A stretch of 61,211 nt of DNA from an uncultured Candidatus Bathyarchaeia archaeon. Lineage in GTDB: Archaea; Thermoproteota; Bathyarchaeia; Bathyarchaeales; DTEX01. The notes below the pieces were generated by a model. It had not been told where the DNA came from and did no database searches. It saw only the letters and a program-made list of their open reading frames with translations. This document shows positions 279 through 58,296 of this stretch, piece by piece (position 1 is the stretch's first letter; every line of letters begins with the position of its first letter). Where the stretch lies: assembly GCA_964600125.1 (NCBI GenBank), contig CAZRIK010000001.1, forward strand, positions 5,412-66,622. Reading direction: 5' to 3'. The position numbers and the translations under genes are program-made.

Positions 279-311
279 TGGATGGGCCTTGGATGGGCCT
301 TGGATGGGCCT
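279..311. repeat. Tandem repeat, 3 x 11 bp (TGGATGGGCCT)
   Basis: Three perfect head-to-tail copies at 279-289, 290-300 and 301-311. Confidence 0.95.
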
Positions 312-7607: not shown

Positions 7608-8008
7608 AACTAAACCAAATAGTCACCTACGCAACCAAAGGCAGTGCTGGCTTTGATATTGTCGCAGACGAAACCATTGTCATCAAACAAAGACATACTG
7701 CGAAAATCAAGACCACTCTTCGTATTGTTTCTGCAGAACAGGGAGAATATGTGTCCATACTCCCAAGGTCTAGCCTTTCTTCCAAGGGTATCCTTGCAGT
7801 GGATGGGACAATTGATGGGGATTATGAAGGGCTTTGGTCGGTGGTAATCCTCAACACAACAGGGGATATATACAAGATTCACGCTGGTGATCGAATTGCA
7901 CAAGGGATTTTGAGGAGGTTCAACTACATCGAAGGTGCACATGTGGCTGATCGTATTCGGGGTCAAGGCGCATTTGGTAGCACTGACCAAGTGAAACAGG
8001 AGAAATAA
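7604..8008 (+). CDS. dut: dUTP pyrophosphatase (trimeric dUTPase)
   Basis: All five dUTPase motifs are present: GSAGFDI, PRSSLSSKG, GTIDGDYEG, GDRIAQ and RGQGAFGST. Confidence 0.92.
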   Translation: MKLNQIVTYATKGSAGFDIVADETIVIKQRHTAKIKTTLRIVSAEQGEYVSILPRSSLSSKGILAVDGTIDGDYEGLWSVVILNTTGDIYKIHAGDRIAQGILRRFNYIEGAHVADRIRGQGAFGSTDQVKQEK

Positions 8009-8009
8009 G

Positions 8010-8465
8010 GTGAGCAACTTTTTCGATTTAACTAGAGAAGAGCGTGTCGTGAATCAATACACAGGCGTGGAAATATCTCACACAAAAAAGTTTACCAACC
8101 TCATCACAAACCTTGCAAAGACTAAACCAAAACATCCACTAATCCTCCTGTCTCAACAGAAACCTGAGACAATGAAGAGCGTGTTGCAAGATGAGGTGAA
8201 CGCATTATATAAGCAGATGAATAGATATAACTTGGGTATGTCAGACAGAGGTGAGCTTGTTGATCTTGAATCCTCGAAGCTCGTACATACAAACCACTTG
8301 ATGTGCCTACTGAAAAAAGACCACAGAAGTGAGCTATTCGACACATCAAAGCTCTACGAATGGTTGGTCATTGCTGCTATTGAAGGATATCAATTGGCTG
8401 TTCGTTCTCCAAATCTTCCTGCATCTGAGAGACAGGAGTTTGAAGTCGTGAACGAATATCTTTGA
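8010..8465 (+). CDS. Hypothetical protein (151 aa)
   Basis: ACAGGAGAAATAAG motif RBS, GTG start at 8010. The last ~89 nt overlap a convergent minus-strand ORF. Confidence 0.65.
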   Translation: MSNFFDLTREERVVNQYTGVEISHTKKFTNLITNLAKTKPKHPLILLSQQKPETMKSVLQDEVNALYKQMNRYNLGMSDRGELVDLESSKLVHTNHLMCLLKKDHRSELFDTSKLYEWLVIAAIEGYQLAVRSPNLPASERQEFEVVNEYL

Positions 8466-8694
8466 CACACGCTTCAACCATACTGGAAGAATATTTGTCG
8501 AGCTGAAACTGAATAGACTTACCTGCATCCTGTGTACGCACAAGAAGCAACAACCCACCATTGTTTTCCTCGGTTGGGTGTTGCCAATGACCCACATAGG
8601 CAGCGTCCACGGGGATAGGTTTGATGTCTTCGTAAGTGGCTTCGACCCACTCCAAGGTTTCTTTGACTCTGACCATAAATTCTTCTTCGTTCAT
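8377..8694 (-). CDS. Hypothetical protein (105 aa)
   Basis: The ATG overlaps the stop of the upstream minus-strand gene (8691-8694). Last gene of the minus block. Confidence 0.55.
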   Translation of the reverse strand: MNEEEFMVRVKETLEWVEATYEDIKPIPVDAAYVGHWQHPTEENNGGLLLLVRTQDAGKSIQFQLDKYSSSMVEACVKDIRSRLQTPVSQMQEDLENEQPIDILQ

Positions 8695-9094
8695 GTACTC
8701 ACCTCCGCACTACTGCCTGTTGCCTTCACATAATCTTTCAATATTTCTTTTCGTACCGTCGGCCCACACTCACCGGAAAGGATCTTCTCCGCGTAGTATT
8801 GGCGGTGCTCCTCTGGAAGCACGCTATTGAAACCACCACCTTTATCATCCTGCAGGCCCGCAACCATGAGGCATAGGGGATCATCAAGCACACCAAATTT
8901 TTGGATGCGGCCTTGACCATCCACACGGTCATTCAAAGAGACGCCCTTGTTGGTCATGAGCACATCCGTCCAGTTGCCGTAGTACGTCTCCACATCAGAT
9001 CCACAAGAGAGACAGGAAGATAGATGGCCAATGTAGTCAGGGGTGATGTCGCCACAGGAGAGGCATCGGTAATCGTGTTTGGGTTGGCTCACAG
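8691..9094 (-). CDS. Zinc-ribbon protein (134 aa)
   Basis: GTG at 9094 preceded by AAGGAAGGGAG, just after the upstream stop (track ORF extends to 9155). Contains CLSCG..(14)..CLSCG. Confidence 0.6.
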
Positions 9095-9096
9095 GT

Positions 9097-9306
9097 CTAC
9101 TCCCTTCCTTGGAGAGAGGTGTGCATACTTGTGTACTGTTGGGAGGTTTCCGCATTACTTTTCAAGTAGTTATCAATCATTGCCGTAAGATTATTTATTT
9201 CCGTGAGCAACTCATCACGCTCTTTTTCATACTTATCCTGCAACTTCACCAGCTTTTCTGTATGAAAATCCCTCGAATACCTAAGTGCCTGAATAGTGGT
9301 CATCAT
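9097..9306 (-). CDS. Hypothetical coiled-coil protein (69 aa)
   Basis: ACAGGAGGATAA RBS upstream of the ATG at 9306. Helical, charged sequence. Confidence 0.55.
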   Translation of the reverse strand: MMTTIQALRYSRDFHTEKLVKLQDKYEKERDELLTEINNLTAMIDNYLKSNAETSQQYTSMHTSLQGRE

Positions 9307-9309
9307 ACT

Positions 9310-10275
9310 TTATCCTCCTGTTTCTTCAGAGCTATGGATATTTGAGACAGGAGAATAAGAGACTCCCATGCCATACCCACGCAAGGTTTCAGGATACATA
9401 TTTGCACGGCTGGTGGCAAACTCATAGGAGTAATTCTCACACCCATCCATCTCACCACAAATTGTCTGAAACGGACAATATTTACAACCATCCCATGCAG
9501 GCGTACCAAAGATATCCACCCATGTAGGTCGTACTGGCATCATTTCTTGAGCTACCCACGACTCATCCATCAGTTCCATACCTTTGTGGAAGCCTGATTC
9601 AGTGATGATTGTCTTGACGCCATCACAATAAAGGTCATCACCTACCAATTCCAACTCCATAACATTTATGCCTGGTTCAAATGCAAGCTTTTGTTTGGTC
9701 TTGAAATCGTAGTTACTGAACCATACGGGCAGCCCATAAAGTACACTACCAATCTTTGTCTTGTGGTAAATCATTTGAGTGAGGCACTGCAACACAGCCC
9801 CAAGCTTTGGCTTACTCTGGTGAAATGCTGCACTGGCAGTATTAAAAGATTGTACGGATTTCATTTCTACGGGATATATTTTCCCTGTCGCATGGTTGGT
9901 AACATACAAGTCAGGTCGTGCAGTAAGCCCTATACCACCTGCTACAACAGGAGGAAAAATAGCCTGAGCTTGTTCTTCTTCTGTCCAAGTAATATTTACA
10001 TCAGACTTAACCAACATCTGCTTGATCACTTCCTCAAGTGCTCTACCAGTTGCCCAAGACACAAGTGATTTGATGGTTGGACGTTCTTGGATACCAAGTG
10101 CACGAAAGGCAGATGTGCGAGGACAGTGTGAGGAATCATCAGCAATGAACACACTATTTTTAATAGAAAATTGAGTAACGTTCGCACCACGAAAGGCAAG
10201 TAGTTCAGGTTGAGGGTCAAATTCCCCTACCATCTTTTCCACACCAGACAGGAGAATTAGATCTAAATCTTTCAT
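9310..10275 (-). CDS. PD-(D/E)XK nuclease, Cas4/RecB-like with Fe-S cysteines
   Basis: N-terminal Cys (DSSHCPR), D...EMK core (RPDLYV...VEMKSVQ), and C-terminal CKYCPFQTIC cluster. This matches the Cas4/DUF2800-type phage exonuclease architecture. Confidence 0.8.
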   Translation of the reverse strand: MKDLDLILLSGVEKMVGEFDPQPELLAFRGANVTQFSIKNSVFIADDSSHCPRTSAFRALGIQERPTIKSLVSWATGRALEEVIKQMLVKSDVNITWTEEEQAQAIFPPVVAGGIGLTARPDLYVTNHATGKIYPVEMKSVQSFNTASAAFHQSKPKLGAVLQCLTQMIYHKTKIGSVLYGLPVWFSNYDFKTKQKLAFEPGINVMELELVGDDLYCDGVKTIITESGFHKGMELMDESWVAQEMMPVRPTWVDIFGTPAWDGCKYCPFQTICGEMDGCENYSYEFATSRANMYPETLRGYGMGVSYSPVSNIHSSEETGG

Positions 10276-10607
10276 GGATGTTTCTCCTGATACTCACTCT
10301 CGGTAATCATATGGGCAGCATATACAGACAAATTAGAGTCAGTCTGTGAAGCCACTGCAAGGGCAAGTTCATAACTCCAAAACAATGTATCCTCTACCAC
10401 GAACATATATACAGGAGGATTACCATATTTCTCCTGTTCTTCCTCATCAGTATATACATCCTCTTCTTCATTTTCTTCTTGAGGAGACAGGAGAGTTGAT
10501 GTACTTACTTTTTCCTTTAGGGATAAGTTTTCCACCACTATCCTTGACAATTCCTCGAACATTTCTTCTAAATGCTCGTGCATCAGTTGCTCTTTTTCTT
10601 TTTGCAT
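10272..10607 (-). CDS. Acidic hypothetical protein (start uncertain; ORF open to 10673)
   Basis: Helical then Glu/Asp-rich sequence. The stop overlaps the nuclease start. The N-terminal part overlaps ORF 10468-10998 in another frame. Confidence 0.45.
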   Translation of the reverse strand: MQKEKEQLMHEHLEEMFEELSRIVVENLSLKEKVSTSTLLSPQEENEEEDVYTDEEEQEKYGNPPVYMFVVEDTLFWSYELALAVASQTDSNLSVYAAHMITESEYQEKHP

Positions 10608-10998
10608 CTTCAACTTTAACCCTAATACATTCACTGGTATCATCACTACTATCTCCTTCACTATTTCTAACAACTACACTTCTATTTCTATAAACCATCT
10701 CATACATATATATACAAACCGTATGCTCATCCCTTGGACTCAACCCATAGACTGCCCCTGCTGGTGACATGGACTCATCCTTACGACACAGGAGCCAAAC
10801 CTTCGCAAAGAATACAACGCCTCTGTCGAAGGAAGTAAGGCTGGAGGTATCGGAAGTAGCTGCACCCTCTTCATTGCCGTTCCTTGAGGCTCTAAACGCT
10901 ATTTGGAACCCTCTGGTGAACTCCTTGGCAACCTGACCATCGTGAAACCGTAACTTGAACCAAGGATACCTTCGACCTTGTGAGCGAATTTCTGTCAC
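10468..10998 (-). CDS. Hypothetical protein (176 aa), first gene of the minus block
   Basis: GTG start at 10998. The N-terminal ~110 aa look protein-like. The C-terminal basic tail overlaps the next ORF. Confidence 0.45.
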   Translation of the reverse strand: MTEIRSQGRRYPWFKLRFHDGQVAKEFTRGFQIAFRASRNGNEEGAATSDTSSLTSFDRGVVFFAKVWLLCRKDESMSPAGAVYGLSPRDEHTVCIYMYEMVYRNRSVVVRNSEGDSSDDTSECIRVKVEDAKRKRATDARAFRRNVRGIVKDSGGKLIPKGKSKYINSPVSSRRK

Positions 10999-11121
10999 AG
11001 TGTGCTCCTGCGTAAGTAAACTTTATTATTCAATCCGTTGAATAGGGGGAAATGTAGGTGACAGGGAAAATAAGGTCAAGGTGTACGAGGAGATTTTGAC
11101 GGTATGTGAGGCACTTTGTGG

Positions 11122-11157
11122 GAGACAGGAGGAATATGGCTATTTACCTTCCTGTTT
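11122..11157. promoter_or_regulatory. Conserved intergenic element, copy 1 (GAGACAGGAGGAATATGGCTATTTACCTTCCTGTTT)
   Basis: Near-identical block recurs at 55658-55694. It contains an inverted pair of the ACAGG/CCTGT motif. Confidence 0.6.
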
Positions 11158-11278
11158 CGTTGACTATGTCCATGGGTATGTTTTGTGTGGGTAAGAAGGG
11201 TACGCTCGCTTGCGCTCGCTAGGAGGAAACAGGAGGATTATGGGGTGTTATTGTTGGGGTTTTTGCTTTTAATGGGAT

Positions 11279-11355
11279 GGGGCTTTACAAAACAAAACCG
11301 GCTCTATATATAAGATACTGAGAATACCGTTTTGGGTTTGTTTTGTAAAGTCCCC
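11279..11355. repeat. Long imperfect inverted repeat around an AT-rich core
   Basis: Arms are GGGGCTTTACAAAACAAAACC (11279-11299) and GGTTTGTTTTGTAAAGTCCCC (11335-11355). The core contains TATATATAAG. Lies 20 nt upstream of gene 11375. Confidence 0.7.
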
Positions 11356-11374
11356 CAAAACGGTTGGAACCCTA

Positions 11375-12382
11375 GTGAAAGGATTCATCGTGGATGATAC
11401 TGGAGAGGTAAAATTTTTACAAGGATTACGTGATTTTTGTGCTGGTCAATGGATAATATACGAAAATCCTGAGCCAAGTAGTTTTTGTAGTGAACAAGAT
11501 CTAAACAATTGGTCTATTGTTCAAGCCCATCGGAATGGGGAAGGGTTTGAGGCTTTTGTCCAGTTTTGTCGCACATCCACAAGAGAGTTCCACGAATCTG
11601 TAAATCGTTTGAAGATGGTACAGACAAAATCAATACTAATGCAATTTATTGATAGTAAGTTTTCGATTGGTATAAAGACAATTGATACTGAGGCAATGAA
11701 AAAATCAATAAGAAAAAAAGATGAAGACTCAGAACTGATAAGAAACATAAAGATATCTGTTCAAGCACAGATACATGATACAGGTACCTCATATGGATTT
11801 TTTCCAAATTTACGTATGACATATGATATGTTACTAGCCATTGGTTTGATAAAAATATCAAATAAAATACAAAGAGGGACAGGAGAATTAGTATCCTATT
11901 TCCCCTGTCTTCCTATTTCACTTTTTCGTAAATTATTTCATTTATATGAGGATAAGATACCAAAAGAAAGATTAAACAACTTTGGAATTTTTGTTGAGTT
12001 TTCAGGGTACTCATATCTGTTCTTTAAAGATAGAGATTACCCTCCAATAAAAGTTAGAGGCGGTAGAAAATCAAATCATAATTTATTAAAAATATTAAAA
12101 GAAAAGAAAGTGAGATATTTATTCCAACCTTGTGATCATGTTGTTGCAGTTGATTTTGATATTTATGAGGCCAGTGTTTTAGATGAGTTGATTCAAAGAA
12201 GAGATAATTTATCAAAATCAAAAAGAAAATCTCACAGACTGCATAAAGATGCTCAAACATTCCCTCACCCAGAAAACCCCACCCAAACAATTACTGCCAA
12301 TGAATATGCGAAACTAAAAGGTATCTCAAGACCTACTGCATATGCTAGGTTGAGAAAATCACAGGAGTCCAACACCTCATGA
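11375..12382 (+). CDS. Putative DNA-binding protein with C-terminal HTH (paralogue of 55925-56875)
   Basis: 335-aa ORF (an in-frame GTG at 11390 has the better RBS, AAAGGA). The C-terminus TITANEYAKLKGISRPTAYARLRK is HTH-like. Confidence 0.65.
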   Translation: MKGFIVDDTGEVKFLQGLRDFCAGQWIIYENPEPSSFCSEQDLNNWSIVQAHRNGEGFEAFVQFCRTSTREFHESVNRLKMVQTKSILMQFIDSKFSIGIKTIDTEAMKKSIRKKDEDSELIRNIKISVQAQIHDTGTSYGFFPNLRMTYDMLLAIGLIKISNKIQRGTGELVSYFPCLPISLFRKLFHLYEDKIPKERLNNFGIFVEFSGYSYLFFKDRDYPPIKVRGGRKSNHNLLKILKEKKVRYLFQPCDHVVAVDFDIYEASVLDELIQRRDNLSKSKRKSHRLHKDAQTFPHPENPTQTITANEYAKLKGISRPTAYARLRKSQESNTS

Positions 12383-12457
12383 AAAACTAACCCATATTTC
12401 CCCTGTTTCTCTAGTAAATGTGTGAATGTATGTACAACATGAAAGGAACTTTTCGAT

Positions 12458-12784
12458 ATGAGTGAGAGTAAAATACTGACGTTTGGTGAGCTATGTGAAG
12501 CTATAATTGAAAACCAAGATATTGAAGTACAGTCGCCGCTGTTTAGTGACAAATGGATACCGTCTATATTTATAGACGATACGGAATTAGGGTGGATATA
12601 TCTACAGTTTAAGAGAAGCAAATACCGTATCAAGCCAGCCCCCATTAAAACCTACCAGTGGCTGATAAAAGATCCAGGGCATGGCTTTTTTATCACTGCA
12701 AACTGGCACACAAGAGAACAGGCAGAAAGGCAATTTGGCTTTTATTTAGCTGAGCCGTATTTACCGAGTGAGAGGGCATTATGA
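12458..12784 (+). CDS. Hypothetical protein (108 aa)
   Basis: AAAGGAA upstream of the ATG. The stop overlaps the next start. Confidence 0.65.
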   Translation: MSESKILTFGELCEAIIENQDIEVQSPLFSDKWIPSIFIDDTELGWIYLQFKRSKYRIKPAPIKTYQWLIKDPGHGFFITANWHTREQAERQFGFYLAEPYLPSERAL

Positions 12785-13134
12785 CTAGAGAATTTCAAGT
12801 AGGCGAAAAGGTTTTTTCAACGACGTACGGTATTTTAGAAGTTATCGAGGTCGGCTCTGGCAATGTATTTACAGGGCTAAATCCTCGATGTATGTTTACA
12901 CTGGACGGAAAAGTTAATTACAAGTGTAAATACCCAGGCATTTACCACCTCGATGAAGCACTAAAACTTTTCCCGCAGTGGCTTGAGGAAGTGGAGGAGG
13001 AAATAGTCGAAGTTATGTGCCTGAATATGGAAAATCCTCCTATACATAAAATCTGGTCCCATTCGGAAACAGCAAAAACACCTAGAGAACCAGCTATGGT
13101 TGTCTATGAAATACCTGATATTAAACATGAATAA
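12781..13134 (+). CDS. Hypothetical protein (117 aa)
   Basis: ATGA overlap with the upstream gene. Confidence 0.65.
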   Translation: MTREFQVGEKVFSTTYGILEVIEVGSGNVFTGLNPRCMFTLDGKVNYKCKYPGIYHLDEALKLFPQWLEEVEEEIVEVMCLNMENPPIHKIWSHSETAKTPREPAMVVYEIPDIKHE

Positions 13135-13334
13135 TGGGAGTTTTGGGAGTGAGCGAAATAATCAATGATGAAATGAATAGATCAATTATTAATAGGGTTG
13201 TTTCTCTTGCGAACGCTGCTAAAAAACTTAAAGAAATGCCGGTTGCTGAATTCGTTGAAAGACTTGATTCGGTAGAAACTCCTAATAGCGAATCTTATGC
13301 TGGAATCGAGAGATTCATAAAAGAAGGAATGTAA
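13134..13334 (+). CDS. Hypothetical protein (66 aa)
   Basis: Start overlaps the upstream stop by 1 nt. Confidence 0.55.
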   Translation: MGVLGVSEIINDEMNRSIINRVVSLANAAKKLKEMPVAEFVERLDSVETPNSESYAGIERFIKEGM

Positions 13335-13532
13335 ATGAGAGAAAAAGACGCTGAATGGGTGGAAGAAAATAGATCATTTGCTAACGATTCGTTAGACAGA
13401 CTAGACTCTATTTTAAAATTAGACGAAATAGAACAAGAGTTCGCAGCATTGCAGGCTGAGAATGAACATTTAAAAAATTATATAAATTCCATGCAGCGTA
13501 ATCCTGCACACTATGGCCGTATTGGGAGTTAA
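13335..13532 (+). CDS. Hypothetical coiled-coil protein (65 aa)
   Basis: ATG immediately after the upstream TAA. Confidence 0.55.
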   Translation: MREKDAEWVEENRSFANDSLDRLDSILKLDEIEQEFAALQAENEHLKNYINSMQRNPAHYGRIGS

Positions 13533-13535
13533 CAA

Positions 13536-13709
13536 ATGAAATTCTACGTAGCTCTCTGGGTACTAGACATATCACCCACAGGAACAGTAATCGAATCTCC
13601 TATAGCTGCTTTGGAAAAAACAGACCTAGGAATCGAAATATATACAAAAACCACTAAACAATACTTGAGCGATTTACTCACATCAGAAGGATGGGAACCA
13701 ACCAAATGA
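13536..13709 (+). CDS. Small hypothetical protein (57 aa, below the ORF-track cutoff)
   Basis: Hand-translated as MKFYVALWVLDISPTGTV...SEGWEPTK. The stop forms an ATGA overlap with the ATG at 13706. Confidence 0.4.
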   Translation: MKFYVALWVLDISPTGTVIESPIAALEKTDLGIEIYTKTTKQYLSDLLTSEGWEPTK

Positions 13710-14431
13710 CTGTCGAATTTATCACCGAACCATCAGTACGACTCATTAGCCTTACTTCTCCTGTTTCCTTCAATCCAAAGGTAAAGACAGCAGAAGACTT
13801 GATCACCTACTGTGCACGTGTCTCCTCACCTGATCGTGATGAGCACAAAGACCCAAGCAAGCTCCTTGAATACTGCGTGAAGCACAAGCACTGGAGCATC
13901 TTTGAACAGGCGAGTATGACAATGGAAATTACCTGTCCGTTGTTTGTGGCGACACAAATACTTCGTCACAGATCACATGTTTTTCAGATGCTGAGCCAGA
14001 GATATACTAACGCACCTAACAAATGTTTCCTCATAAATCACCGTATCGCACATCCAACCAATCGCCAACTCTCTGTTGAAACAGGGGAAATAGAGTCCAC
14101 TATCCTTTGGGAGAGTATGCAAAAACTATCCATAAACATCGCCTTCCAACAATACCACCAAGCTCTTGACGCTGGTGTTGCCAGAGAAGTGGCTCGCTCT
14201 ATTCTTCCTGTCTCCACAGCCACGACCCTGATGATGACTGGTAATGTACGCTCTTGGATTCACTTTCTGGAGGCCCGCTTATATGAAGGTGCACAGAAAG
14301 AAATCCGTGATGTAGCTGAGAAAGTACAGGAAATATTCATAGAAAACTTCCCAACTGTTTCAACAGCTCTGGGCTGGTACTTGACATCCAAAACCGACAC
14401 CGATAAAGTGGCCGAGTCACCAAACGACTAA
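13706..14431 (+). CDS. thyX: Flavin-dependent thymidylate synthase ThyX
   Basis: ThyX signature RHRSHVFQMLSQRY (RHRxxSxxxxSxR). Start chosen at the ATG at 13706 (ATGA coupling); the track ORF opens at 13691. Confidence 0.9.
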   Translation: MTVEFITEPSVRLISLTSPVSFNPKVKTAEDLITYCARVSSPDRDEHKDPSKLLEYCVKHKHWSIFEQASMTMEITCPLFVATQILRHRSHVFQMLSQRYTNAPNKCFLINHRIAHPTNRQLSVETGEIESTILWESMQKLSINIAFQQYHQALDAGVAREVARSILPVSTATTLMMTGNVRSWIHFLEARLYEGAQKEIRDVAEKVQEIFIENFPTVSTALGWYLTSKTDTDKVAESPND

Positions 14432-14454
14432 TTGAATTTTTGGGAATATAAACT

Positions 14455-14811
14455 GTGGACAAGCTTGAAGTATCCCGTTTCTTTTTCGCACTGACCTTCA
14501 AGGACTATGGTCTTTGGCAGGGACAGGAAGTAGATTACTCCCTAATTCCCCTGTCTTTCACAGGTAAACAGATGGGAGATATTCTACGGCGAGTAAAACT
14601 TTCAAATTACGTCGGATGGGAGAAATTCTGTCATGACAAGTACAACAGGAAGGTAATGGTTGAGATTTGCGGTAAGGGCCTGCCCGATGAAATCGTGGAA
14701 GCTACTATTGCCGTCCTGTTGGAATACCAATCCGAGTTCGATAGATGGAAAAACGCACAAGCGAAACTAATCATTCGCAGAAAGGAACCTAGAGATGGCG
14801 ATCTCATTTAA
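14455..14811 (+). CDS. Hypothetical protein (118 aa)
   Basis: GTG-start ORF with a weak RBS. Its stop overlaps the next gene. Confidence 0.5.
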   Translation: MDKLEVSRFFFALTFKDYGLWQGQEVDYSLIPLSFTGKQMGDILRRVKLSNYVGWEKFCHDKYNRKVMVEICGKGLPDEIVEATIAVLLEYQSEFDRWKNAQAKLIIRRKEPRDGDLI

Positions 14812-15646
14812 AGACCTGAAGAAGGCATCGAAAAGTACAGTAGCACCTGTGCCTTTTTGTATACTTATTGGCCCTAGAAGTGCTGGCAAGTCGTCTGTAT
14901 TTGGAACAAGTTCCAAGTCAATTATCCTCATCACCACATCCAGCGAAAGCCATGGCATCAATGCTGCCCGTACTGCTGCTGTTCGTGCTGGCCACGGGGA
15001 TACGATTGTGGAGTATTTCATTGACCGAGACGACGAAGGTAAAGACATTGTCAGTGCCGACCTCCAACTAGCACGTCTAACTTCCCTGTTGGACTTTCTG
15101 GTTGCTTCTCCTGATACCGCCAAGGAGATAGGTAGTGTGGCATTTGATTCCCTGTCTTCTTTGGATAAGGTCATCTGCCGTTCCAAGGACGTACTGACGG
15201 CCAACACCTATGAGAAAAATAAGGTGATCATATCCAAGGCCCTGGACGTGGTTGCGAAACTTCGTTCAGTTCATGCCAAAGGTGTGGGCGTGTTTTGTAC
15301 CTGTGCTGCAAGTAGTGAAGCAGATCCAAACAGTGCAGCGCATACCCGTGTGACTCCTGTTTTAGGTTCCTACGGCTTGGTCAATGAACTGATTGGCGCA
15401 TTCGACGACGTGCTCATCATCGGCCCTGTCAACATGACAGACGACGAAGGCAAGGACGTGAAGGAATACGTATTCCAAACTGGTGGACAGATCGAACGTT
15501 CGGGCAAGACCTTCACCGGTCAACCACGCTCTCTCTCATTCAGTCCACGTATCACAGGTATCATGAGTGATGAGCTACCAATGTACATACCAGCAAATAT
15601 AGATCAACTGTTCGAGTTGAAGTCTTCCATCAACGGCACCAAATAA
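14795..15646 (+). CDS. RecA-like P-loop ATPase (Sak4 / AAA_24-type)
   Basis: Walker A ILIGPRSAGKSS, Walker B-like VAFDSLSSL. Size and position next to the polymerase are typical of phage Sak4-like recombination ATPases. Confidence 0.6.
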   Translation: MAISFKDLKKASKSTVAPVPFCILIGPRSAGKSSVFGTSSKSIILITTSSESHGINAARTAAVRAGHGDTIVEYFIDRDDEGKDIVSADLQLARLTSLLDFLVASPDTAKEIGSVAFDSLSSLDKVICRSKDVLTANTYEKNKVIISKALDVVAKLRSVHAKGVGVFCTCAASSEADPNSAAHTRVTPVLGSYGLVNELIGAFDDVLIIGPVNMTDDEGKDVKEYVFQTGGQIERSGKTFTGQPRSLSFSPRITGIMSDELPMYIPANIDQLFELKSSINGTK

Positions 15647-15657
15647 GGAGAAATGCC

Positions 15658-16446
15658 ATGGGAATGTTTGATAGTTATAAAGCGGATTTTGAACCAGTAT
15701 CAGAGGCTACACTTGCAGAGATCAACAAAAAGATGGTTGCTCGTATGGGTGAGGGCGTACATAGCGTTATGTTGAAAGGCTTTGGCGAGCAGAAACAAGA
15801 TGATGGTAGTTTACATATCTTCAAGATGAGTAAAGAAGATGTAAATTGGGGTATGATTAAGCCTATCTTTATCAATGCAGCAGGAGAAGAACACTCTGCT
15901 ATTGTTATGTTTCCTCTAGGCAATAACGACGTTTCCAGAATTATGTATAAAGGCGAAAAGAAAGCCTTTATGTGTAAGAACATCTCAACTATTTGTGATG
16001 CAATTGCCGTCGGTATCGATAAACTTCAGACAGCAGTTACCAGTTCCGATGCCAAAGCATTGAATGAATTGATTGGCATGACTTTGCAATTGAACTTGCA
16101 GTGGAAGAAAAACACTTCACATCTTCAGTATAGTGCTGAAGAAAAAGTAAGCTACCTTATGGACGACCACAACAACATCGTTTGTGCCGAACCATTTATC
16201 ATTCCTAAAGAAGGTAAATTCGAGGACAAATATTCAGAAGTAATCACCACAGCAGCAACCTACAATAAACCTTTCAACAATAACATCGAGTGTACCATAT
16301 CCATGGATGACCAAGACAACACAGGTTATGGATTGAAAATTGTAGAGTTTGCAAAGCCAAAACCAAAACCTACATTGTCTTCTTTCGCAGCTTTGAAGAA
16401 GGCTCCTTTGGCAAAAAAACCTGACCCAGTGGTTGACGCTGAGTAA
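15658..16446 (+). CDS. Hypothetical protein (262 aa); possible ssDNA-binding role from position only
   Basis: AAGGAGAAA RBS. Sits between the Sak4-like ATPase and the DNA polymerase. No motif recognised. Confidence 0.6.
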   Translation: MGMFDSYKADFEPVSEATLAEINKKMVARMGEGVHSVMLKGFGEQKQDDGSLHIFKMSKEDVNWGMIKPIFINAAGEEHSAIVMFPLGNNDVSRIMYKGEKKAFMCKNISTICDAIAVGIDKLQTAVTSSDAKALNELIGMTLQLNLQWKKNTSHLQYSAEEKVSYLMDDHNNIVCAEPFIIPKEGKFEDKYSEVITTAATYNKPFNNNIECTISMDDQDNTGYGLKIVEFAKPKPKPTLSSFAALKKAPLAKKPDPVVDAE

Positions 16447-16556
16447 AGGTTATGCTACCCTGAGTGTAATAACTCCTAAACAAAATGTGTATTTTTCAGC
16501 GTAAGTGATACTACCAAGCAAATACCACTTACGCTTTTTTCTTAGGAAAATCATCA

Positions 16557-18587: not shown

Positions 18588-18590
18588 AAT

Positions 18591-18860: not shown

Positions 18861-18870
18861 GACAGGGGAA

Positions 18871-20227: not shown

Positions 20228-20243
20228 TTGAAGGACTTTTTCG

Positions 20244-21902: not shown

Positions 21903-21922
21903 GGATTGAAGAGTATTTGAGC

Positions 21923-22141: not shown

Positions 22142-22143
22142 CA

Positions 22144-55478: not shown

Positions 55479-55657
55479 GGCGTCACCTCTAAGAAAAAAT
55501 AATGGCGGGTATTGGCTGGCCTTATTGCTTACTTCCTTCGCCATTGGCTAGAACAGGTCGGTATGTGACGAAATGGTTGCGGAGAGTAAGAATAAGGTCA
55601 GTGTACCCATGGATATGGTTGCATAGATGGATGGGTAGTTCAAGGGTGTGGAGGAGA

Positions 55658-55694
55658 GAGACAGGGGAAATATGGGTGATTTACTTTCCTGTTT
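55658..55694. promoter_or_regulatory. Conserved intergenic element, copy 2 (GAGACAGGGGAAATATGGGTGATTTACTTTCCTGTTT)
   Basis: Matches 11122-11157 with a few substitutions and a 1-nt indel. Confidence 0.6.
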
Positions 55695-55765
55695 TTTGGG
55701 GACAGGAGGAATGACACCCATCCCTTGCGAGGATGTGCCCAGATTTCAGATGACCTTTGAAAAAT

Positions 55766-55871
55766 GCCCAGGAGCAGATGACCGAGTCTCTTATAGTATT
55801 ATATTTATTAAGATTATTTGACTTTAAGAATAGAATCATTTAGATAAAGAGTCGGTCATCTGCTGCTGGGC
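55766..55871. repeat. 23-bp inverted repeat (21/23 match) flanking a 60-bp AT-rich core
   Basis: Arms are GCCCAGGAGCAGATGACCGAGTC (55766-55788) and GAGTCGGTCATCTGCTGCTGGGC (55849-55871). Extra GATGACC copies lie at 55749-55755 and 55890-55896. Confidence 0.85.
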
Positions 55872-55924
55872 ATGGGGCTCAGAACAAATGATGACCGAAA
55901 AATCACCACAGACTGGAGAGTACC

Positions 55925-56875
55925 ATGGGTTTTATGTCTGAGCAAGAAGTCAAAGAAGAAATTTCTAAAGCTGCGAAACAGGGAGATAACCATTATTCCT
56001 CCTGTCTTAAAAATCCTAACTCCCCTCTAGTGAAACCTACATTGAAAAACACTAGAGAAGAGGTGATGTTTTACTCGGCTAAAAATTCAGTAAAGAATAA
56101 AAATGCTAAGAGCTTGAAATACTCCATAAATAAAGTGAGAGAACTTGAAACAGGGAAGTTAGAGGATGATGTTTATTCTCCTGTTTCCCTAGATCAAATT
56201 GAAATTCTCCGACTTGTGACTGTCAGTGGGACAGACAGATCAATCCTTTACAATTCACTACGTGCAGCTTGTGATCGTTGGTATGAATCAGAAGATTGTA
56301 AAATGGGATTGTTGCCGCCTTTGGAAGAGATGGTTCCAATTTTAAGTTCAATGGGTGTGATTGAAGTGACCGAAAATTGTCTCATCTTTCCGAATATTTA
56401 TCTTGAAACTTTTCGTAGAGCTACTAGAATTTCTAGAAAGAAAATTCCCACTAAACTTTTGTGTGATTATGGTATCCAGATCGCAAGAGTAAGAGATAAG
56501 AAGATTTATGTTTCGGCTGAGAAACAGGGGAATAAGAGGGTAAATGTTCGTATTGTTATGGACAATGTTACGGAAGCAGATGAGTTAGTCCACGAGCATA
56601 ATCTCTCTGCTCCTCAAGAAAAAATGATAATAGACGTTGAAGAAGTGTACCAGTGGGTTGGTTTTGATGCGAATCAATATGGTGCGAAACGCCTAGAGGA
56701 TTTTGAGAATTTTATTATGGGTTGGGCAACAAAAACTAAAAAAAGTAGAGAGAGTAATCCAAATTTGAAACAATACCTCGATCCCCACACCGGTAAAATC
56801 ACCACCACAAAAGAATACGCTGAGACATACAACGTAGATAGAAAGACCGCCTACCGTCATCTCAACAAAAAATAA
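55925..56875 (+). CDS. Putative DNA-binding protein with C-terminal HTH (paralogue of 11375-12382)
   Basis: 316-aa ORF with a GGAGAG RBS. The C-terminus ITTTKEYAETYNVDRKTAYRHLNKK parallels the C-terminus of the 11375 gene. Confidence 0.65.
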   Translation: MGFMSEQEVKEEISKAAKQGDNHYSSCLKNPNSPLVKPTLKNTREEVMFYSAKNSVKNKNAKSLKYSINKVRELETGKLEDDVYSPVSLDQIEILRLVTVSGTDRSILYNSLRAACDRWYESEDCKMGLLPPLEEMVPILSSMGVIEVTENCLIFPNIYLETFRRATRISRKKIPTKLLCDYGIQIARVRDKKIYVSAEKQGNKRVNVRIVMDNVTEADELVHEHNLSAPQEKMIIDVEEVYQWVGFDANQYGAKRLEDFENFIMGWATKTKKSRESNPNLKQYLDPHTGKITTTKEYAETYNVDRKTAYRHLNKK

Positions 56876-56880
56876 GCGAT

Positions 56881-56907
56881 GCCTAAGAATATTTTCGGTT
56901 CTTAGGC
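56881..56907. terminator. Perfect 9-bp hairpin, possible bidirectional terminator
   Basis: GCCTAAGAA-tattttcgg-TTCTTAGGC, 5 nt after the stop of 55925-56875. A T-run follows only on the minus strand (ATCGCTTATTTTTTG). Confidence 0.5.
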
Positions 56908-56924
56908 ATCTAGCCCCTAGGGCG

Positions 56925-57120
56925 GGACTGCACAGACCATACACTATCTCAACAAACAACCCAAGTCAAAATAATTTCTCAGGACCAGGCTCTAAAGAAC
57001 CTGGCTTGAAACCTGAGAAATCTTAATACTATCTAAAAGATTACTATCTTTCAAAGTATTGTTAAGGCTGTTTTGCCAGCCTTTTTTCGCTATATTTCTA
57101 GCGGCGTTCAGGTCACGATC
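56925..57120 (-). ncRNA. Candidate TnpB guide (omega/reRNA) region; boundaries approximate
   Basis: In characterised TnpB systems the guide RNA overlaps the 3' end of tnpB and the right end. Here there is a nested hairpin, TTTCTCAGG...[CCAGG-ttctttagag-CCTGG]...CCTGAGAAA (56975-57020). No RNA evidence. Confidence 0.35.
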
Positions 57121-58235
57121 TAACGTGAAGCCACAAGAAATACAGTCAAAAACTCTATTAGAAAGCTTAAGACCTTCCTTAATCAACTCGCAATTACTGC
57201 ATGTTTTAGAGGTATAAGCTTCATTAATTTCTTCAAAATACCTACCAGCACTTTCAGCCAAGTATGATATTTTACACTTGAGATTTCCGATTGCGATGTC
57301 GGAGGCACATCTTGCCAATCTTCCTGATATCAACCATTTGGGAGACACATTCCCGACAAAAATATATTCGCTTGTCTTGACTATTTTCGTGGCGAGCTTC
57401 CAGTTATAGTCTTGCCTTCTCCTTGCTATTTTCCGATGAACGAAAGGCAATGCTTTCCTGTCTTTGTTGGAGGCATTCTTCAATGACAGCAAGTTTTTGT
57501 CGTCTAGAAACTTCTTCCGCTCAGGCTGAACGACAAAAGACCCTTCGATGTTTGAAGCATTTATCGTATGTTTCAAGCCAAGATCTATTCCTAGAATCTT
57601 ATTTGTAGCTGCGGGATAGGATACTTTTTTGATGTTGTTTGTTATGATACAAGCCCAGTAGTCTCCGCATGTGTCGCATTTTATCGAAACTTGTTTGATC
57701 GTTCCTTCGATTGTTCTAGAATCGCCGGTTCCTCTTACCTTCCCAATTCCAGGGATATTGAGAGAGATCTTGTTGCCAAATTGCTTGACCGGCTGGTTTG
57801 TTTTATGCGCAGAATAAGAGAAACTACTTCCTTTTATCTTCTCCGTTTTAAATCTTGGCCTTCCAAGTCTTTTCCCTTTCTTATCCCAAAACTTATATCT
57901 TTCCGCAGCCTTGTGGGCTCTAGCGCACATGTTTTGAGAAATCCAGGCTGGCAAGCTGCTTGTTTTATAAAGCATGTTTATGGAAAACTCTGGAACTAGA
58001 GTGTCCTGCGAAAGCAAGATTTCAAGAGATGTGTTGAAAATATCTATACTTTCAAATATGTAGTTATCAACTTGCTGTTTTTGATTTTTGTTCAAGTTGA
58101 GCTTTACTTTGAAAGACTGCATTAACATCTCCTTTCCTCTAGGTTATATGCCTTTTCTTCTTGTTTCAAGACCTATCGAATTCTGAGAGAAAATTCATCC
58201 TGGAGCTAAAGCACCAGGTCTTCTTTTCTAAGATA
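56940..58235 (-). mobile_element. IS200/IS605-family, tnpB-only element (ends approximate)
   Basis: tnpB is flanked on the same strand by similar subterminal hairpins, CCTGG-tgctttagct-CCAGG (58199-58218) and CCAGG-ttctttagag-CCTGG (56985-57004). No tnpA. Inserted between the terminators of two convergent genes. Confidence 0.6.
56992..58128 (-). CDS. tnpB: TnpB (IS605 OrfB-type RNA-guided nuclease)
   Basis: RuvC I ILGIDLGLKH, RuvC II EEINEAYTSKTCSNC, zinc finger CSNC...(15)...CISCG, RuvC III LDRDLNAARNIAKKG. 378 aa. Confidence 0.9.
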   Translation of the reverse strand: MLMQSFKVKLNLNKNQKQQVDNYIFESIDIFNTSLEILLSQDTLVPEFSINMLYKTSSLPAWISQNMCARAHKAAERYKFWDKKGKRLGRPRFKTEKIKGSSFSYSAHKTNQPVKQFGNKISLNIPGIGKVRGTGDSRTIEGTIKQVSIKCDTCGDYWACIITNNIKKVSYPAATNKILGIDLGLKHTINASNIEGSFVVQPERKKFLDDKNLLSLKNASNKDRKALPFVHRKIARRRQDYNWKLATKIVKTSEYIFVGNVSPKWLISGRLARCASDIAIGNLKCKISYLAESAGRYFEEINEAYTSKTCSNCELIKEGLKLSNRVFDCISCGFTLDRDLNAARNIAKKGWQNSLNNTLKDSNLLDSIKISQVSSQVL

Positions 58236-58238
58236 GGA

Positions 58239-58273
58239 TAAAAACCCCGCAAAAGAACCATTCTCTTGCAGGG
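58239..58273 (-). terminator. Rho-independent terminator after gene 58297-58557
   Basis: Minus strand reads CCCTGCAA-gagaatggttct-TTGCGGGG followed by TTTTTAT. Confidence 0.65.
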
Positions 58274-58296
58274 CATATGCGTGAACCAACATGAAC

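What the first reader, a model, noticed from the sequence alone, without database searches (positions are those of the whole stretch)
10999..12382. Two paralogous control modules: shared intergenic blocks, long inverted repeat and an HTH-protein gene (second copy at 55479-56875)
The divergent intergenic regions 10999-11374 and 55479-55924 each separate the first gene of a minus-strand operon from a plus-strand gene. They share non-coding blocks in shuffled order:
- GGTATGTGA (11101-11109 / 55560-55568)
- AATAAGGTCA(A)GGTGTAC (11069-11086 / 55591-55606)
- CCATGG(G/A)TATG (about 11171 / about 55608)
- a ~37-nt element, GAGACAGGRGRAATATGG.T.ATTTACYTTCCTGTTT (11122-11157 / 55658-55694)

Each region then carries a long imperfect inverted repeat around an AT-rich core, placed just upstream of the plus-strand gene (11279-11355 and 55766-55871).

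The two downstream proteins (335 and 316 aa) appear to be distant paralogues. Their C-terminal HTH-like segments are similar (TITANEYAKLKGISRPTAYARLRK vs ITTTKEYAETYNVDRKTAYRHLNKK). A central segment is also comparable (MLLAIGLIKISNK...YFPCLPISLFRKLF...IPKERLNNFGI vs VPILSSMGVIEVTEN...IFPNIYLETFRRAT..KIPTKLLCDYGI).

The arm sequences of the two inverted repeats are unrelated. Each paralogue may therefore recognise its own repeat, as an autoregulated switch or origin-binding pair.
Basis: partly seen in the sequence, partly recalled or inferred. Interest (0 to 1): 0.65.

Follow-up and report, generated by a model that had tools for sequence, protein, structure and literature searches.

The report
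Swappable HTH-protein gene cassettes in phage
Two distantly related genes in a novel freshwater phage belong to a three-member orphan family of DNA-binding proteins carried on exchangeable cassettes; one copy arrived in a 2.6 kb insertion next to a TnpB transposon gene, so the "two control modules" are real paralogues but not two equivalent switches.

Summary
The sequence features are real. Both long inverted repeats (IRs) fold far better than shuffles. Proteins A (335 aa) and B (316 aa) are true paralogues. They are weak pairwise (E 4e-5) but bridged by the only other family member among 1.84 billion proteins, P0003, from a sister phage.

The interpretation needs revision.
1. Apart from one 37-nt element, the "shared blocks" are chance. 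That element is an inverted pair of a 14-nt motif (GARACAGGRGRAWWA). The motif occurs about 105-144 times genome-wide, on both strands, mostly in genes, and is conserved in relatives.
2. The A-side IR is backbone. The sister phage keeps it but follows it with a B-type IR and a B-like gene instead of gene A.
3. The B module lies in a 2,585-nt insertion (55653-58237) that three relatives lack. The insertion also carries an IS200/IS605-type tnpB.
4. The B-type IR travels with B-type genes. Its inner 13-mers and a promoter-like core are invariant. Its outer arms differ completely yet stay complementary.

Best reading: exchangeable, self-promoted DNA-binding regulator (or initiator) cassettes that fill the first slot of the replication operon, with B an accessory moron-like copy. 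The biochemical function is untested.

The parts
10999..11374 (.). A-side divergent intergenic region (backbone): lies between the leftward operon (first ORF ends at 10998) and gene A
   Evidence: ORF map. Window 7603-11103 is 77% identical to relative contig L006, and 11276-11358 is 82% identical to L001:97-179.
11122..11158 (+). A-side 37-nt element: an inverted pair of the dispersed motif (GAGACAGGAGGAATATGGCTATTTACCTTCCTGTTT)
   Evidence: 32/37 identical to 55658-55694, local score 47 against a simulation maximum of 36. In the relative only the right-hand half is present.
11228..11243 (+). Single copy of the dispersed motif (AACAGGAGGATTATGG), conserved in the relative at L001:48-63
11279..11354 (.). 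A-type inverted repeat. Arms 11279-11299 and 11334-11354; 34-nt AT-rich loop holding the conserved CTGAGAATACCGT; each arm carries an inward-facing TTTACA. This is a backbone element, not specific to gene A.
   Evidence: z -4.8. Conserved in L001:105-175 ahead of a different gene. The arm words are unique in the window.
11375..12382 (+). Gene A: 335 aa (330 aa if it starts at GTG 11390). Orphan family with a C-terminal HTH-like segment at about residues 303-330. First gene of the ThyX / Pol A / primase / helicase operon.
11359..13717 (+). Variable slot (cassette A): gene A plus four small ORFs (12458-13532). It has no DNA homology to the relative, which carries a B-type IR, P0003 and a 70-aa ORF here. 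Homology resumes at ThyX.
   Evidence: blastn and blastp of L001 against the window; gene table of L001
12392..12407 (-). Near-consensus copy of the dispersed motif immediately downstream of gene A
   Evidence: 1 mismatch; 25.1 bits
55479..55652 (.). Backbone leader upstream of the first structural-operon gene. It is 87-88% identical to relatives L003, L004 and L005 up to position 55652.
55653..58237 (.). 2,585-nt insertion relative to three relatives, whose empty site reads ...GTGGA-ATGTTGGAA-ATAAAAACCCC.... It contains the B cassette and a tnpB element.
55658..55694 (+). B-side 37-nt element (inverted pair of the dispersed motif), 5 nt inside the left insertion junction
55764..55873 (.). B-type inverted repeat. 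Arms 55764-55789 and 55848-55873; the inner 13-mers CAGATGACCGAGT / AGTCGGTCATCTG are invariant between phages; the outer 11 nt are lineage-specific but complementary; the 58-nt core is strongly AT-rich.
   Evidence: z -8.4; 24/26 paired here, 28/29 in L001; unique in the window
55818..55846 (+). Promoter-like core inside the B-type IR: TTGACT-N17-TAGATA. Hexamers and spacing are conserved in L001. The -10 is imperfect; the window also has TTAAGA-N17-TAGAAT at 55808-55836.
   Evidence: Read from the sequence and alignment A3. The consensus scan is not above chance, so this is an inference.
55747..55755 (+). Extra direct copy of the inner-arm word CAGATGACC; a further GATGACCGA lies at 55890-55898 in the 5' leader of gene B
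   Evidence: 3 of 5 CAGATGACC copies and 3 of 6 GATGACCG copies in the genome lie in 55747-55898
55925..56875 (+). Gene B: 316 aa. Same orphan family; 36% identical to P0003.
56879..56911 (.). Strong hairpin between the convergent genes B and tnpB. The T-run lies on the minus strand and overlaps gene B's stop codon.
   Evidence: z -4.7; sequence
56992..58128 (-). tnpB (378 aa), an RNA-guided endonuclease of an IS200/IS605-type element
   Evidence: NCBIfam guided_TnpB 156 bits against a cut-off of 100; Pfam Cas12f1-like_TNB and OrfB_IS605
58129..58237 (-). Left-end-like segment of the tnpB element, with the subterminal hairpin CCTGGTGCTTTAGCTCCAGG. A similar hairpin, CCAGGTTCTTTAGAGCCTGG, sits at the tnpB stop codon (about 56981-57003).
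   Evidence: Read from the sequence; this is an inference.
58238..58275 (-). Rho-independent-type terminator of the preceding co-directional operon. The insertion sits directly after it.
   Evidence: Junction sequences in the window and in L003, L004 and L005

Best explanation
Genes A and B are diverged members of a tiny orphan family. Each protein has an N-terminal region of about 280 aa of unknown fold and a C-terminal helix-turn-helix. In this freshwater phage lineage the family is carried on exchangeable cassettes.

One member always heads the replication operon (ThyX, Pol A, primase, helicase). This phage has gene A there; its sister phage has the B-like P0003. Neighbouring genes are 76-94% identical between the two phages, but the slot proteins share only 25% identity. 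This is allele replacement of a specificity-type gene.

Gene B is an additional, accessory copy. It forms a self-contained unit of IR-bracketed promoter-like core, gene and hairpin. That unit lies inside a 2.6 kb insertion that also holds an IS200/IS605-type tnpB, placed just after a terminator between two co-directional operons. This is a moron-like arrangement.

Most likely mechanism (inferred, not shown): B-type proteins are sequence-specific DNA binders. They recognise the two arms of the B-type IR that flank their own promoter-like core. The right arm lies at or just downstream of the predicted start site, so binding would repress the gene's own transcription. The invariant inner 13-mer and the lineage-specific outer 11 nt would be the two parts of a bipartite site. 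Both arms would change in concert when the protein's specificity changes.

The A-side IR is a conserved backbone element of the divergent promoter region, not gene A's private site.

The blocks shared by the two regions are copies of a genome-wide 14-nt motif. The best copies of that motif cluster at both loci.
For: SHOWN
- Paralogy.
- The family has only three members among 5.8 billion and 1.84 billion proteins.
- P0003 occupies gene A's slot in a syntenic block with 81% DNA identity.
- Both IR types stand in tandem upstream of P0003.
- The B-type IR has invariant inner arms and an invariant core, while its outer arms are wholly different yet complementary (24/26 and 28/29 paired).
- The insertion junctions are identical in three relatives from three samples.
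- tnpB identity.
- CAGATGACC words are concentrated at the B locus, and the arms are unique in the genome.
- The C-terminal two-helix segment is predicted with confidence. All weak sequence matches of that segment are HTH domains.
- The B cassette is rich in the lineage's motif (8 sites in 1.26 kb) while the tnpB element has none. This suggests the cassette is native to the lineage and the IS is a recent arrival.

INFERRED
- Promoter position, operator function, autoregulation, and any role in controlling the replication operon.
Against: - There is no binding, transcription-start or expression evidence. Promoter-like matches are no more frequent than in shuffles, and the conserved -10 (TAGATA) is imperfect.
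- B and P0003 share identical inner arms, yet their putative recognition helices differ (RKTAYRHLNK against CKNIHRLLKN).
- A and B, which have different IRs, share R-x-T-A-Y in that helix.
- Gene A has no private repeat in its cassette.
- Outer-arm complementarity is explained equally well by selection for a DNA or RNA hairpin.
- A protein of about 320 aa is large for a simple repressor, and the N-terminal domain is uninterpretable. AF2 gave pLDDT 38 and 52, and Foldseek gave no hit.
- Only one comparison genome exists for the IRs.
Confidence: 0.5

Rival explanations
1. Initiator-origin cassettes. A, B and P0003 would be origin-binding replication initiators. The IR with its AT-rich core and CAGATGACC repeats would be the cognate origin, which also autoregulates the initiator gene as in iteron replicons. 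B would then be a second initiator-origin pair.
For: - A family member always heads the replication module.
- Extreme allelic divergence in an otherwise conserved block is typical of initiator/origin specificity pairs.
- The core is strongly AT-rich and flanked by repeated 9-13-mers: two or three direct copies plus one inverted.
- The protein size (315-335 aa) is typical of initiators.
Against: - No significant match to any initiator family. The best is Rep3_N at E 0.097 for one C-terminal fragment.
- Gene A has no private repeat set, and the A-side IR persists without gene A.
- The only tandem-repeat, iteron-like region with A/T tracts is at window 1-311.
- A second origin arriving beside an IS is not an obvious gain.
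Confidence: 0.22
2. RNA- or ssDNA-level hairpin. The long IRs would act as base-paired structures rather than protein sites. Examples are an RNase III processing or stability site in read-through transcripts, or a 5'-leader switch in which the right arm pairs alternatively with the downstream GATGACCGA copy.
For: - The outer 11-12 nt of the B-type arms were replaced wholesale, yet pairing was kept (24/26 and 28/29).
- Very strong fold z-scores.
- The right arm lies in the predicted 5' leader, and a perfect 9-nt complement (GATGACCGA, 55890-55898) lies downstream.
- In L001 a transcript from the A-type IR region would read through the B-type IR.
Against: - The invariant inner 13-mers and extra direct copies upstream of the IR look like protein sites.
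- Both mismatches are G.G, so no G-U pairs identify a transcribed strand.
- No transcript data exist.
- A 58-64-nt loop makes cruciform extrusion in duplex DNA unlikely (established knowledge).
Confidence: 0.12
3. Invertible promoter (inverton). The 26-29-nt arms would mediate inversion of the 58-64-nt promoter-bearing core. This would switch transcription between gene B and the oppositely oriented neighbouring operon.
For: - Promoter-like core bracketed by near-perfect IRs between divergent genes.
- Concerted evolution of the arms is what recombination between arms would produce.
Against: - No recombinase gene was detected anywhere in the window by Pfam or PHROG scans.
- A 58-nt invertible segment is very short for recombinase synapsis (established knowledge).
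- The single G.G mismatch has the same polarity in both phages.
- No inverted form was seen, but no contig spans the IR, so the read test was uninformative.
- In relatives without the insertion there is no divergent operon to switch to.
Confidence: 0.05
4. A and B act through the dispersed motif. Their shared operator would be the 37-nt double-motif element, and more weakly the 100+ genome-wide copies, rather than the long IRs.
For: - The 37-nt element is the only significant similarity between the two regions.
- Four of the five best consensus copies flank gene A or precede gene B.
- The only two density peaks of the motif are at the A and B loci.
- A and B share recognition-helix residues (R-x-T-A-Y) that P0003 lacks, and the sister phage has only half of the A-side element.
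- The motif is under purifying selection.
Against: - The same motif, at the same positions, is conserved in the sister phage, which has neither A nor B but P0003 with a different helix.
- 100+ sites inside genes on both strands are not what an operator set looks like.
- There are no binding data.
Confidence: 0.1

Closest known systems
Phage 'morons' (autonomous promoter-gene-terminator units inserted between conserved genes of related phages; concept from lambdoid phage comparative genomics, cited from own knowledge)
   Same: - The B module is present in this phage and cleanly absent at the same junction in three relatives.
- It sits right after a terminator between two operons.
- It brings its own promoter-like core and a downstream hairpin.
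   Different: - It is a paralogue of a resident core-slot gene rather than a foreign host-benefit gene.
- It arrived with, or next to, an IS200/IS605-type tnpB.
- Promoter and terminator activity are not shown.
- No lysogeny is evident.
Allelic immunity and replication-specificity regions of lambdoid phages (heteroimmune repressor/operator sets; O-ori specificity pairs; own knowledge), and a horizontally acquired heterotypic repressor operon in mycobacteriophage Mcgavigan (PMC12700041, abstract only)
   Same: - A highly divergent DNA-binding gene plus cis-elements is embedded in an otherwise closely related backbone (25% against 76-94% protein identity).
- A second, heterotypic copy in the same genome could cross-act on relatives that carry the matching IR.
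   Different: - No sequence or fold relationship to CI/Cro, O, or Bxb1/L5-type repressors.
- No integrase or lysogeny module was found.
- The function is unknown.
Autoregulated iteron-type Rep initiators (Rep monomers bind direct iterons at the origin; dimers bind an inverted repeat overlapping the rep promoter; own knowledge)
   Same: - The layout is similar: direct copies of a 9-13-mer, an AT-rich segment, an inverted copy at the promoter-like core, then the gene.
- The protein size is similar.
   Different: - No significant Rep_3/WH-domain match.
- The arms are 26-29 nt with lineage-specific outer halves.
- Only two or three direct copies are present.
Cluster A mycobacteriophage repressor-stoperator system (PMC9283540)
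   Same: An asymmetric motif of about 13-14 nt is scattered through a phage genome in many copies, with the best copies at early regulatory regions.
   Different: - There are 5- to 7-fold more copies here (105-144 against more than 20).
- 80% lie inside coding sequence.
- There is no correlation with transcription direction (73 plus, 71 minus; 17 co- and 21 anti-oriented).
- There is no homologue of the repressor.
Genome-wide over-represented words of bacteria (Neisseria DUS, Pasteurellaceae USS, cyanobacterial HIP1; own knowledge)
   Same: - Density of 1 per kb or more, on both strands, and mostly in genes.
- Some copies occur as inverted pairs between genes.
- Positions are conserved between relatives.
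   Different: - The sequence is different (HIP1 GCGATCGC: 0 copies).
- It is known here only from a phage lineage.
- The host is unknown, so host origin could not be tested.
- The density (2.3 per kb) is higher.
IS200/IS605-family TnpB elements
   Same: - A tnpB gene with strong family matches.
- Hairpins near both ends.
- Presence/absence polymorphism.
   Different: - No tnpA is present.
- No omega-RNA family match in Rfam.
- Whether gene B was mobilised with the element or merely lies beside it cannot be told.

Membership tests
Helix-turn-helix DNA-binding proteins | Significant sequence match to a curated HTH family | tested here: not met
   The best matches are below the curated cut-offs: HTH_10 at E 0.0039-0.07, HTH_17 at 0.027, HTH_29 at 0.18, and SETMAR / YvoA HTH at E 0.2-0.5.
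Helix-turn-helix DNA-binding proteins | Two consecutive short helices with a tight turn, predicted with confidence | tested here: met
   In AF2 the C-terminal 35-40 residues are the only confident part. A has pLDDT about 83-85. B has pLDDT 81-89, with helices at 295-302 and 306-314.
Phage moron | Precise presence/absence between closely related genomes at an intergenic junction | tested here: met
   The alignment of L003, L004 and L005 jumps from window 58238 to 55652 with 9 nt between.
Phage moron | Own promoter and own terminator | tested here: inconclusive
   TTGACT-N17-TAGATA is conserved in two phages, but consensus matches are not above chance. The hairpin at 56879-56911 is strong (z -4.7), but its T-run is on the minus strand.
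Iteron-type Rep initiator with origin | Rep_3 / winged-helix initiator domains | tested here: not met
   No Pfam, NCBIfam or PDB-sequence match. There is only Rep3_N at E 0.097 for one C-terminal fragment.
Iteron-type Rep initiator with origin | Array of direct repeats next to an AT-rich segment, and an inverted repeat at the gene's promoter | tested here: inconclusive
   Two or three direct CAGATGACC copies, one inverted copy, and an AT-rich 58-nt core. Replication function is not testable here.
Repressor-stoperator system (Cluster A mycobacteriophages) | Sites in promoters and short intergenic gaps, with orientation correlated to transcription (PMC9283540) | tested here: not met
   115 of 144 sites lie in CDS. 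Strand counts are 73 plus and 71 minus; core copies are 17 co- and 21 anti-oriented.
Repressor-stoperator system (Cluster A mycobacteriophages) | Repressor with N-terminal HTH plus stoperator domain | tested here: not met
   A, B and P0003 have a C-terminal HTH and no similarity to any solved structure sequence or PHROG.
Invertible promoter (inverton) | Promoter flanked by inverted repeats | tested here: met
   (the promoter is inferred)
Invertible promoter (inverton) | Cognate site-specific recombinase, and both orientations present in sequencing reads | tested here: inconclusive
   No recombinase domain in any scanned ORF. The public contigs are 2-5x deep and none spans the IR.
IS200/IS605-type TnpB element (neighbour of gene B) | TnpB RNA-guided endonuclease gene | tested here: met
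   NF040570 at 156 bits (cut-off 100); PF07282 at 72.6 bits (cut-off 26.3).
IS200/IS605-type TnpB element (neighbour of gene B) | Subterminal hairpins at both ends, and an omega-RNA at the 3' end | tested here: inconclusive
   Similar hairpins at about 58190-58215 and about 56981-57003, seen by eye. There is no Rfam match.

The most novel reading that the evidence does not exclude
The 14-nt motif GARACAGGRGRAWWA may be the recognition array of a phage-encoded DNA-binding system of a new type.

The motif has these properties:
- about 2.3 copies per kb;
- strand-symmetric;
- mostly inside genes;
- more evenly spaced than random;
- conserved in position between sister phages;
- absent from the newly arrived tnpB element.

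The A/B-family proteins may bind this array. Their genes sit at the only two density peaks and next to the best consensus copies, including the shared 37-nt double site. Under this reading the two 'control modules' would be the high-affinity nucleation or autoregulatory sites of a genome-wide system. Possible roles are genome marking, compaction, partition-like spreading, or protection.
Probability: 0.15. Interest if true: 0.8.

Novelty: new variant of a known kind. Interest (0 to 1): 0.5.

Why it matters
- **Case study in cassette exchange.** In phages that are 81% identical at the DNA level, a specificity-type DNA-binding gene with its own cis-element is exchanged at the head of the replication operon. 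It is also duplicated elsewhere as an accessory unit beside a TnpB transposon.
- **A gap in protein annotation.** The family has only three members among billions of proteins, so neither function nor fold can be borrowed from homologues. It marks a blind spot in the annotation of freshwater phages.
- **A possible model for specificity change.** If the B-type IR is a bipartite operator that co-evolves with its protein, it shows how new regulatory or immunity specificities could arise.
- **An unexplained genome-wide motif.** The check also exposed a very dense, selected 14-nt motif that has no known counterpart in phages.

Tried and rejected
- **Protein family and structure searches: no significant match.** Pfam, PHROG, NCBIfam and PADLOC scans of A, B and P0003. 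Profile against PDB sequences. AF2 with 2- and 3-sequence alignments gave pLDDT 38 and 52. Foldseek against PDB and BFVD gave a best E of 0.08-0.4 and TM of at most 0.15, which is meaningless.
- **Searches for more relatives.** Word-indexed searches for A, B and P0003 returned only the queries. The family profile found nothing in metagenome contigs or viral contigs. Pol A, alone and as an alignment, found nothing in viral contigs or metagenome contigs. blastn of the A region against 50,697 phage records gave no match. tblastn of Pol A gave at most 25% identity.
- **Host through TnpB.** Only a 30%-identical Lederbergia hit was found, which is uninformative.
- **Inversion and expression tests with public runs.** The contigs are too shallow and none spans an IR. 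There are no usable RNA runs.
- **Palindromic double motif in IMG/VR.** 43 single hits, none in a motif-dense contig.
- **Rfam.** There were no hits at gathering score. The sub-threshold 'miRNA precursor' hits on the B-IR only reflect a long hairpin.
- **Rejected: the dispersed motif as a promoter or only a Shine-Dalgarno context.** It occurs on both strands, in all frames, inside genes.
- **Rejected: HIP1.** GCGATCGC has 0 copies.
- **Rejected: the short shared 9-10-mers as meaningful.** P = 0.18, and they are not co-conserved in relatives.
- **Rejected: the B-IR as a MITE.** The outer ends are the part that differs between copies.
Full report
**Context.** The window is most of a tailed-phage genome of about 66.6 kb from freshwater. 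Public runs that hold it are lake-water and freshwater-sediment metagenomes.
- A plus-strand block at 11375-23261 encodes ThyX, a family-A DNA polymerase, a PriCT primase, a helicase and a thymidylate-kinase-like protein.
- A long minus-strand block at 23.5-55.5 kb encodes the portal, TerL, a CHAP lysin and two proteins of about 1,970-1,980 aa.
- The phage is very distant from catalogued phages. blastn found no match, and Pol A is at most 25% identical to any record.
- No integrase or repressor was recognised.

**Checking the observation.**
- A side: arms 11279-11299 / 11334-11354, 21 nt, 90% complementary, fold z = -4.8.
- B side: arms 55764-55789 / 55848-55873, 26 nt, 92% complementary, fold z = -8.4.
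- The arm sequences are unrelated to each other and unique in the genome.

The two proteins align over about 200 residues at 21% identity, with E = 4e-5 for the single comparison. They are reciprocal best hits among all 302 ORFs of the window, at E about 0.003 against at least 0.35 for the next hit.

**The family.** An exhaustive profile search of 1.84 billion representative proteins returned only A, B and one more protein, P0003.
- P0003 is 36% identical to B over its full length (E 4e-58).
- P0003 is 25% identical to A over 230 residues (E 8e-12).
- It therefore bridges A and B, and their homology is secure.
- Word-indexed searches of 5.8 billion proteins found nothing else.
- No curated family (Pfam, PHROG, NCBIfam, PADLOC), PDB sequence or fold library gives a significant match.
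- AF2 is confident only for the C-terminal two-helix segment, pLDDT 81-89.
- All weak sequence matches of that segment are HTH domains. The 'HTH' label is reasonable but not proven.

**The shared non-coding blocks.** The only significant similarity between the two intergenic regions is the 37-nt element. It is 32/37 identical, with a local score of 47 against at most 36 in 500 simulations and at most 31 against random genome windows.
- With the dispersed motif masked, nothing remains (p = 0.12).
- The two exact 10-mers (CGGTATGTGA, AATAAGGTCA) are within chance (P = 0.18). In the relatives each is conserved on one side only.

The 37-nt element is itself an inverted pair of a 14-nt motif, GARACAGGRGRAWWA. 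That motif pervades the genome.
- The core ACAGGRGRAA occurs 38 times against 0.7 expected.
- A position weight matrix finds 105 sites at 16 bits or more (0.7 expected) and 144 at 12 bits or more (5.5 expected).
- Sites are strand-symmetric (73 plus, 71 minus), use all reading frames, and lie 80% in coding sequence, yet are 3.7-fold enriched in non-coding DNA.
- Sites are more evenly spaced than random (CV 0.71-0.79 against 0.99).
- The only two density peaks are at 10.2-12.4 kb and 55.1-56.5 kb.
- Four of the five best consensus copies flank gene A or precede gene B.

**The sister phage.** P0003 lies on a 25.9 kb JGI contig (L001). Its replication block is syntenic with the window, at 81% DNA identity and 65-94% protein identity.
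- P0003 sits exactly in gene A's slot.
- The 350 nt upstream of P0003 carry both IR types in tandem: an A-type IR (82% identical to 11276-11358) followed by a B-type IR.
- Homology with the window stops at the end of the A-type IR and resumes at ThyX. In between, the window has gene A plus four small ORFs. L001 has the B-type IR, P0003 and one small ORF.
- So the A-type IR is a backbone element of the divergent promoter region, not gene A's own site.
- The B-type IR accompanies B-type genes in two genomes at two different positions.

**Anatomy of the B-type IR.**
- The inner 13-mers (CAGATGACCGAGT / AGTCGGTCATCTG) and a core (TTGACTT...TCATTTAGATAA, read as TTGACT-N17-TAGATA) are invariant between the two phages.
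- The outer 11-12 nt of each arm are completely different between the phages but remain complementary. The window has ATGCCCAGGAG / CTGCTGGGCAT. L001 has TGAGGAAACTTT / AAAGTTTCCTCA.
- Pairing is 24/26 in the window and 28/29 in L001, with one G.G mismatch conserved.
- Extra copies of CAGATGACC / GATGACCGA lie just upstream of the IR and in the leader of gene B. The word is otherwise rare in the genome.
- Such concerted change of both arms shows selection on the pair. That selection could be for a protein that must read two identical bipartite sites, or for a hairpin.
- Consensus promoter matches are not more frequent than in shuffles, so the promoter assignment is an inference from conservation.

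**The B locus is an insertion.** The 90%-identity clusters of window proteins led to more contigs of the sister lineage: L003 (33.8 kb, same metagenome as L001), L004 and L005 (two other samples), and L006.
- In L003, L004 and L005 the 86-aa gene (window 58297-58557) is followed, in the same orientation, by a terminator, about 176 nt, and the first structural-operon gene.
- Their alignment to the window jumps from 58238 to 55652 with only ATGTTGGAA between.
- Window 55653-58237 (2,585 nt) is therefore an insertion. In order it contains:
  - the 37-nt element, starting 5 nt inside the junction, and a further motif copy;
  - the B-type IR;
  - gene B and a strong hairpin;
  - a convergent tnpB (NF040570, 156 bits against a cut-off of 100), with IS200/IS605-style hairpins near both ends.
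- The B part is rich in the lineage's motif (8 sites in 1.26 kb). The tnpB part has none. This suggests a native cassette and a recently arrived IS.
- The 'divergent control region' at B was thus created by the insertion.
- L006 abuts L001 and shows that the sister phage has only the right half of the A-side 37-nt element.
- No further family member is encoded in the roughly 37 kb of sister-lineage sequence in hand.

**The motif is functional and lineage-specific.**
- Within the 9.8 kb aligned block, 23 of 26 window sites are conserved in position and strand in L001.
- Motif columns are 92% identical against 80% elsewhere.
- Density is 0.8-3.3 per kb in every contig of the lineage and 0.0 in an unrelated bacterial locus.
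- Of 43 IMG/VR contigs that contain one palindromic double motif, none exceeds 0.28 per kb.
- The motif fails the defining features of stoperators, which lie in intergenic DNA and are oriented with transcription (PMC9283540).
- It is not HIP1 (0 copies).
- Its role is unexplained.

**Most likely mechanism.** I commit, at about 0.5, to the following. The family are sequence-specific DNA-binding proteins on exchangeable cassettes. One member is the first gene of the replication operon. B is an accessory, moron-like extra copy. The B-type IR is the cassette's own promoter/operator, giving autoregulation.
- Shown: paralogy, cassette replacement, the insertion, conservation and covariation of the IR, and tnpB identity.
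- Inferred: DNA binding to the arms, promoter position, autoregulation, and any control of replication genes.

**Rivals.**
- Initiator-origin cassette (0.22). It is favoured by the position at the head of the replication module and the AT-rich core. It is disfavoured by the lack of any initiator signature, and by a better iteron-like region at window 1-311 with three tandem arrays, the only ones in that region of the genome.
- A purely structural RNA or ssDNA hairpin (0.12).
- Action through the dispersed motif and the 37-nt element (0.10).
- An invertible promoter (0.05).
- An attractive but untested corollary of the main model: B could act in trans on the identical inner arms of B-type IRs in co-infecting relatives such as the L001 phage, giving heterotypic interference.

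**Verdict.** The picture of two equivalent modules, each with a private repeat, is not right. In kind, this is ordinary phage mosaicism: allele replacement, a moron-like insertion and an IS. It involves a sequence-novel protein family and an unusual IR-bracketed promoter-like element. The surrounding genome-wide motif is the most surprising thing in the region.

Noticed in passing
whole window (e.g. 3822, 14081, 36692, 55121-55152); also L001, L003, L006: A dense 14-nt motif, GARACAGGRGRAWWA. It has 105-144 copies (0.7-5.5 expected). It is strand-symmetric, 80% in CDS, and more evenly spaced than random. 23 of 26 sites are conserved in the sister phage (92% against 80% identity). It is absent from the tnpB element. 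No known counterpart; function unknown.
   Followed up: yes
window 1-311: Three tandem arrays, which are the only ones at the left end of the genome: TTGGCTATC x7.1 (1-64, possibly cut by the window start), a 16-mer x2 (203-232), and TGGATGGGCCT x3 (279-311). A/T tracts follow at 265-277, 399-411 and 447-485. This is a candidate origin, packaging site or regulatory region.
   Followed up: partly
window 137, 211, 670, 904, 3282, 10450, 17563, 20486, 23262, 27727, 38915, 50276, 52391: The palindrome GTATATAC occurs 13 times (about 1 expected). Four copies cluster in 137-904 beside related GTATAYAC repeats. Three copies are present in L001.
   Followed up: partly
window 56992-58237: An IS200/IS605-type tnpB (378 aa, no tnpA) lies inside an apparently lytic freshwater phage. 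It is absent from three relatives and has end hairpins at about 58190-58215 and about 56981-57003. There is no Rfam omega-RNA match.
   Followed up: partly
window 55428-55734: A run labelled RNA(?) from a coded organism (X8) holds a 386-nt contig at depth 43 over the B-side leader. About 95 nt of it replace window 55682-55708. It is one of only two pieces of this phage found in the 40 kb examined; the other is at 19398-19563, depth 18, and is a fold-back. This may be an abundant transcript or an amplification artefact.
   Followed up: partly
window 3822, 7996, 18862, 33753, 48719, 58564, 59642: Several co-oriented motif copies sit 0-7 nt upstream of start codons, so their GGAG/GGGG core doubles as the Shine-Dalgarno sequence. 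This recalls the start-associated sequences of some actinophages.
   Followed up: no
window 9310-10275 (-): The 321-aa gene of the leftward operon has a weak Cas4-like (PD-(D/E)xK exonuclease) match (E 2e-5 to 8e-5, below cut-off). It is probably a recombination nuclease.
   Followed up: no
window 23525-29434 (-) and 37016-42964 (-): Two giant ORFs (1,969 and 1,982 aa) lie in the structural block. They were not scanned against any family library here.
   Followed up: no
L006:1-25 and L001:1-60: The two JGI contigs from sample 3300063034 appear to be adjacent pieces of one sister-phage genome, broken about 20-30 nt apart within the A-side control region (window about 11160-11190).
   Followed up: partly
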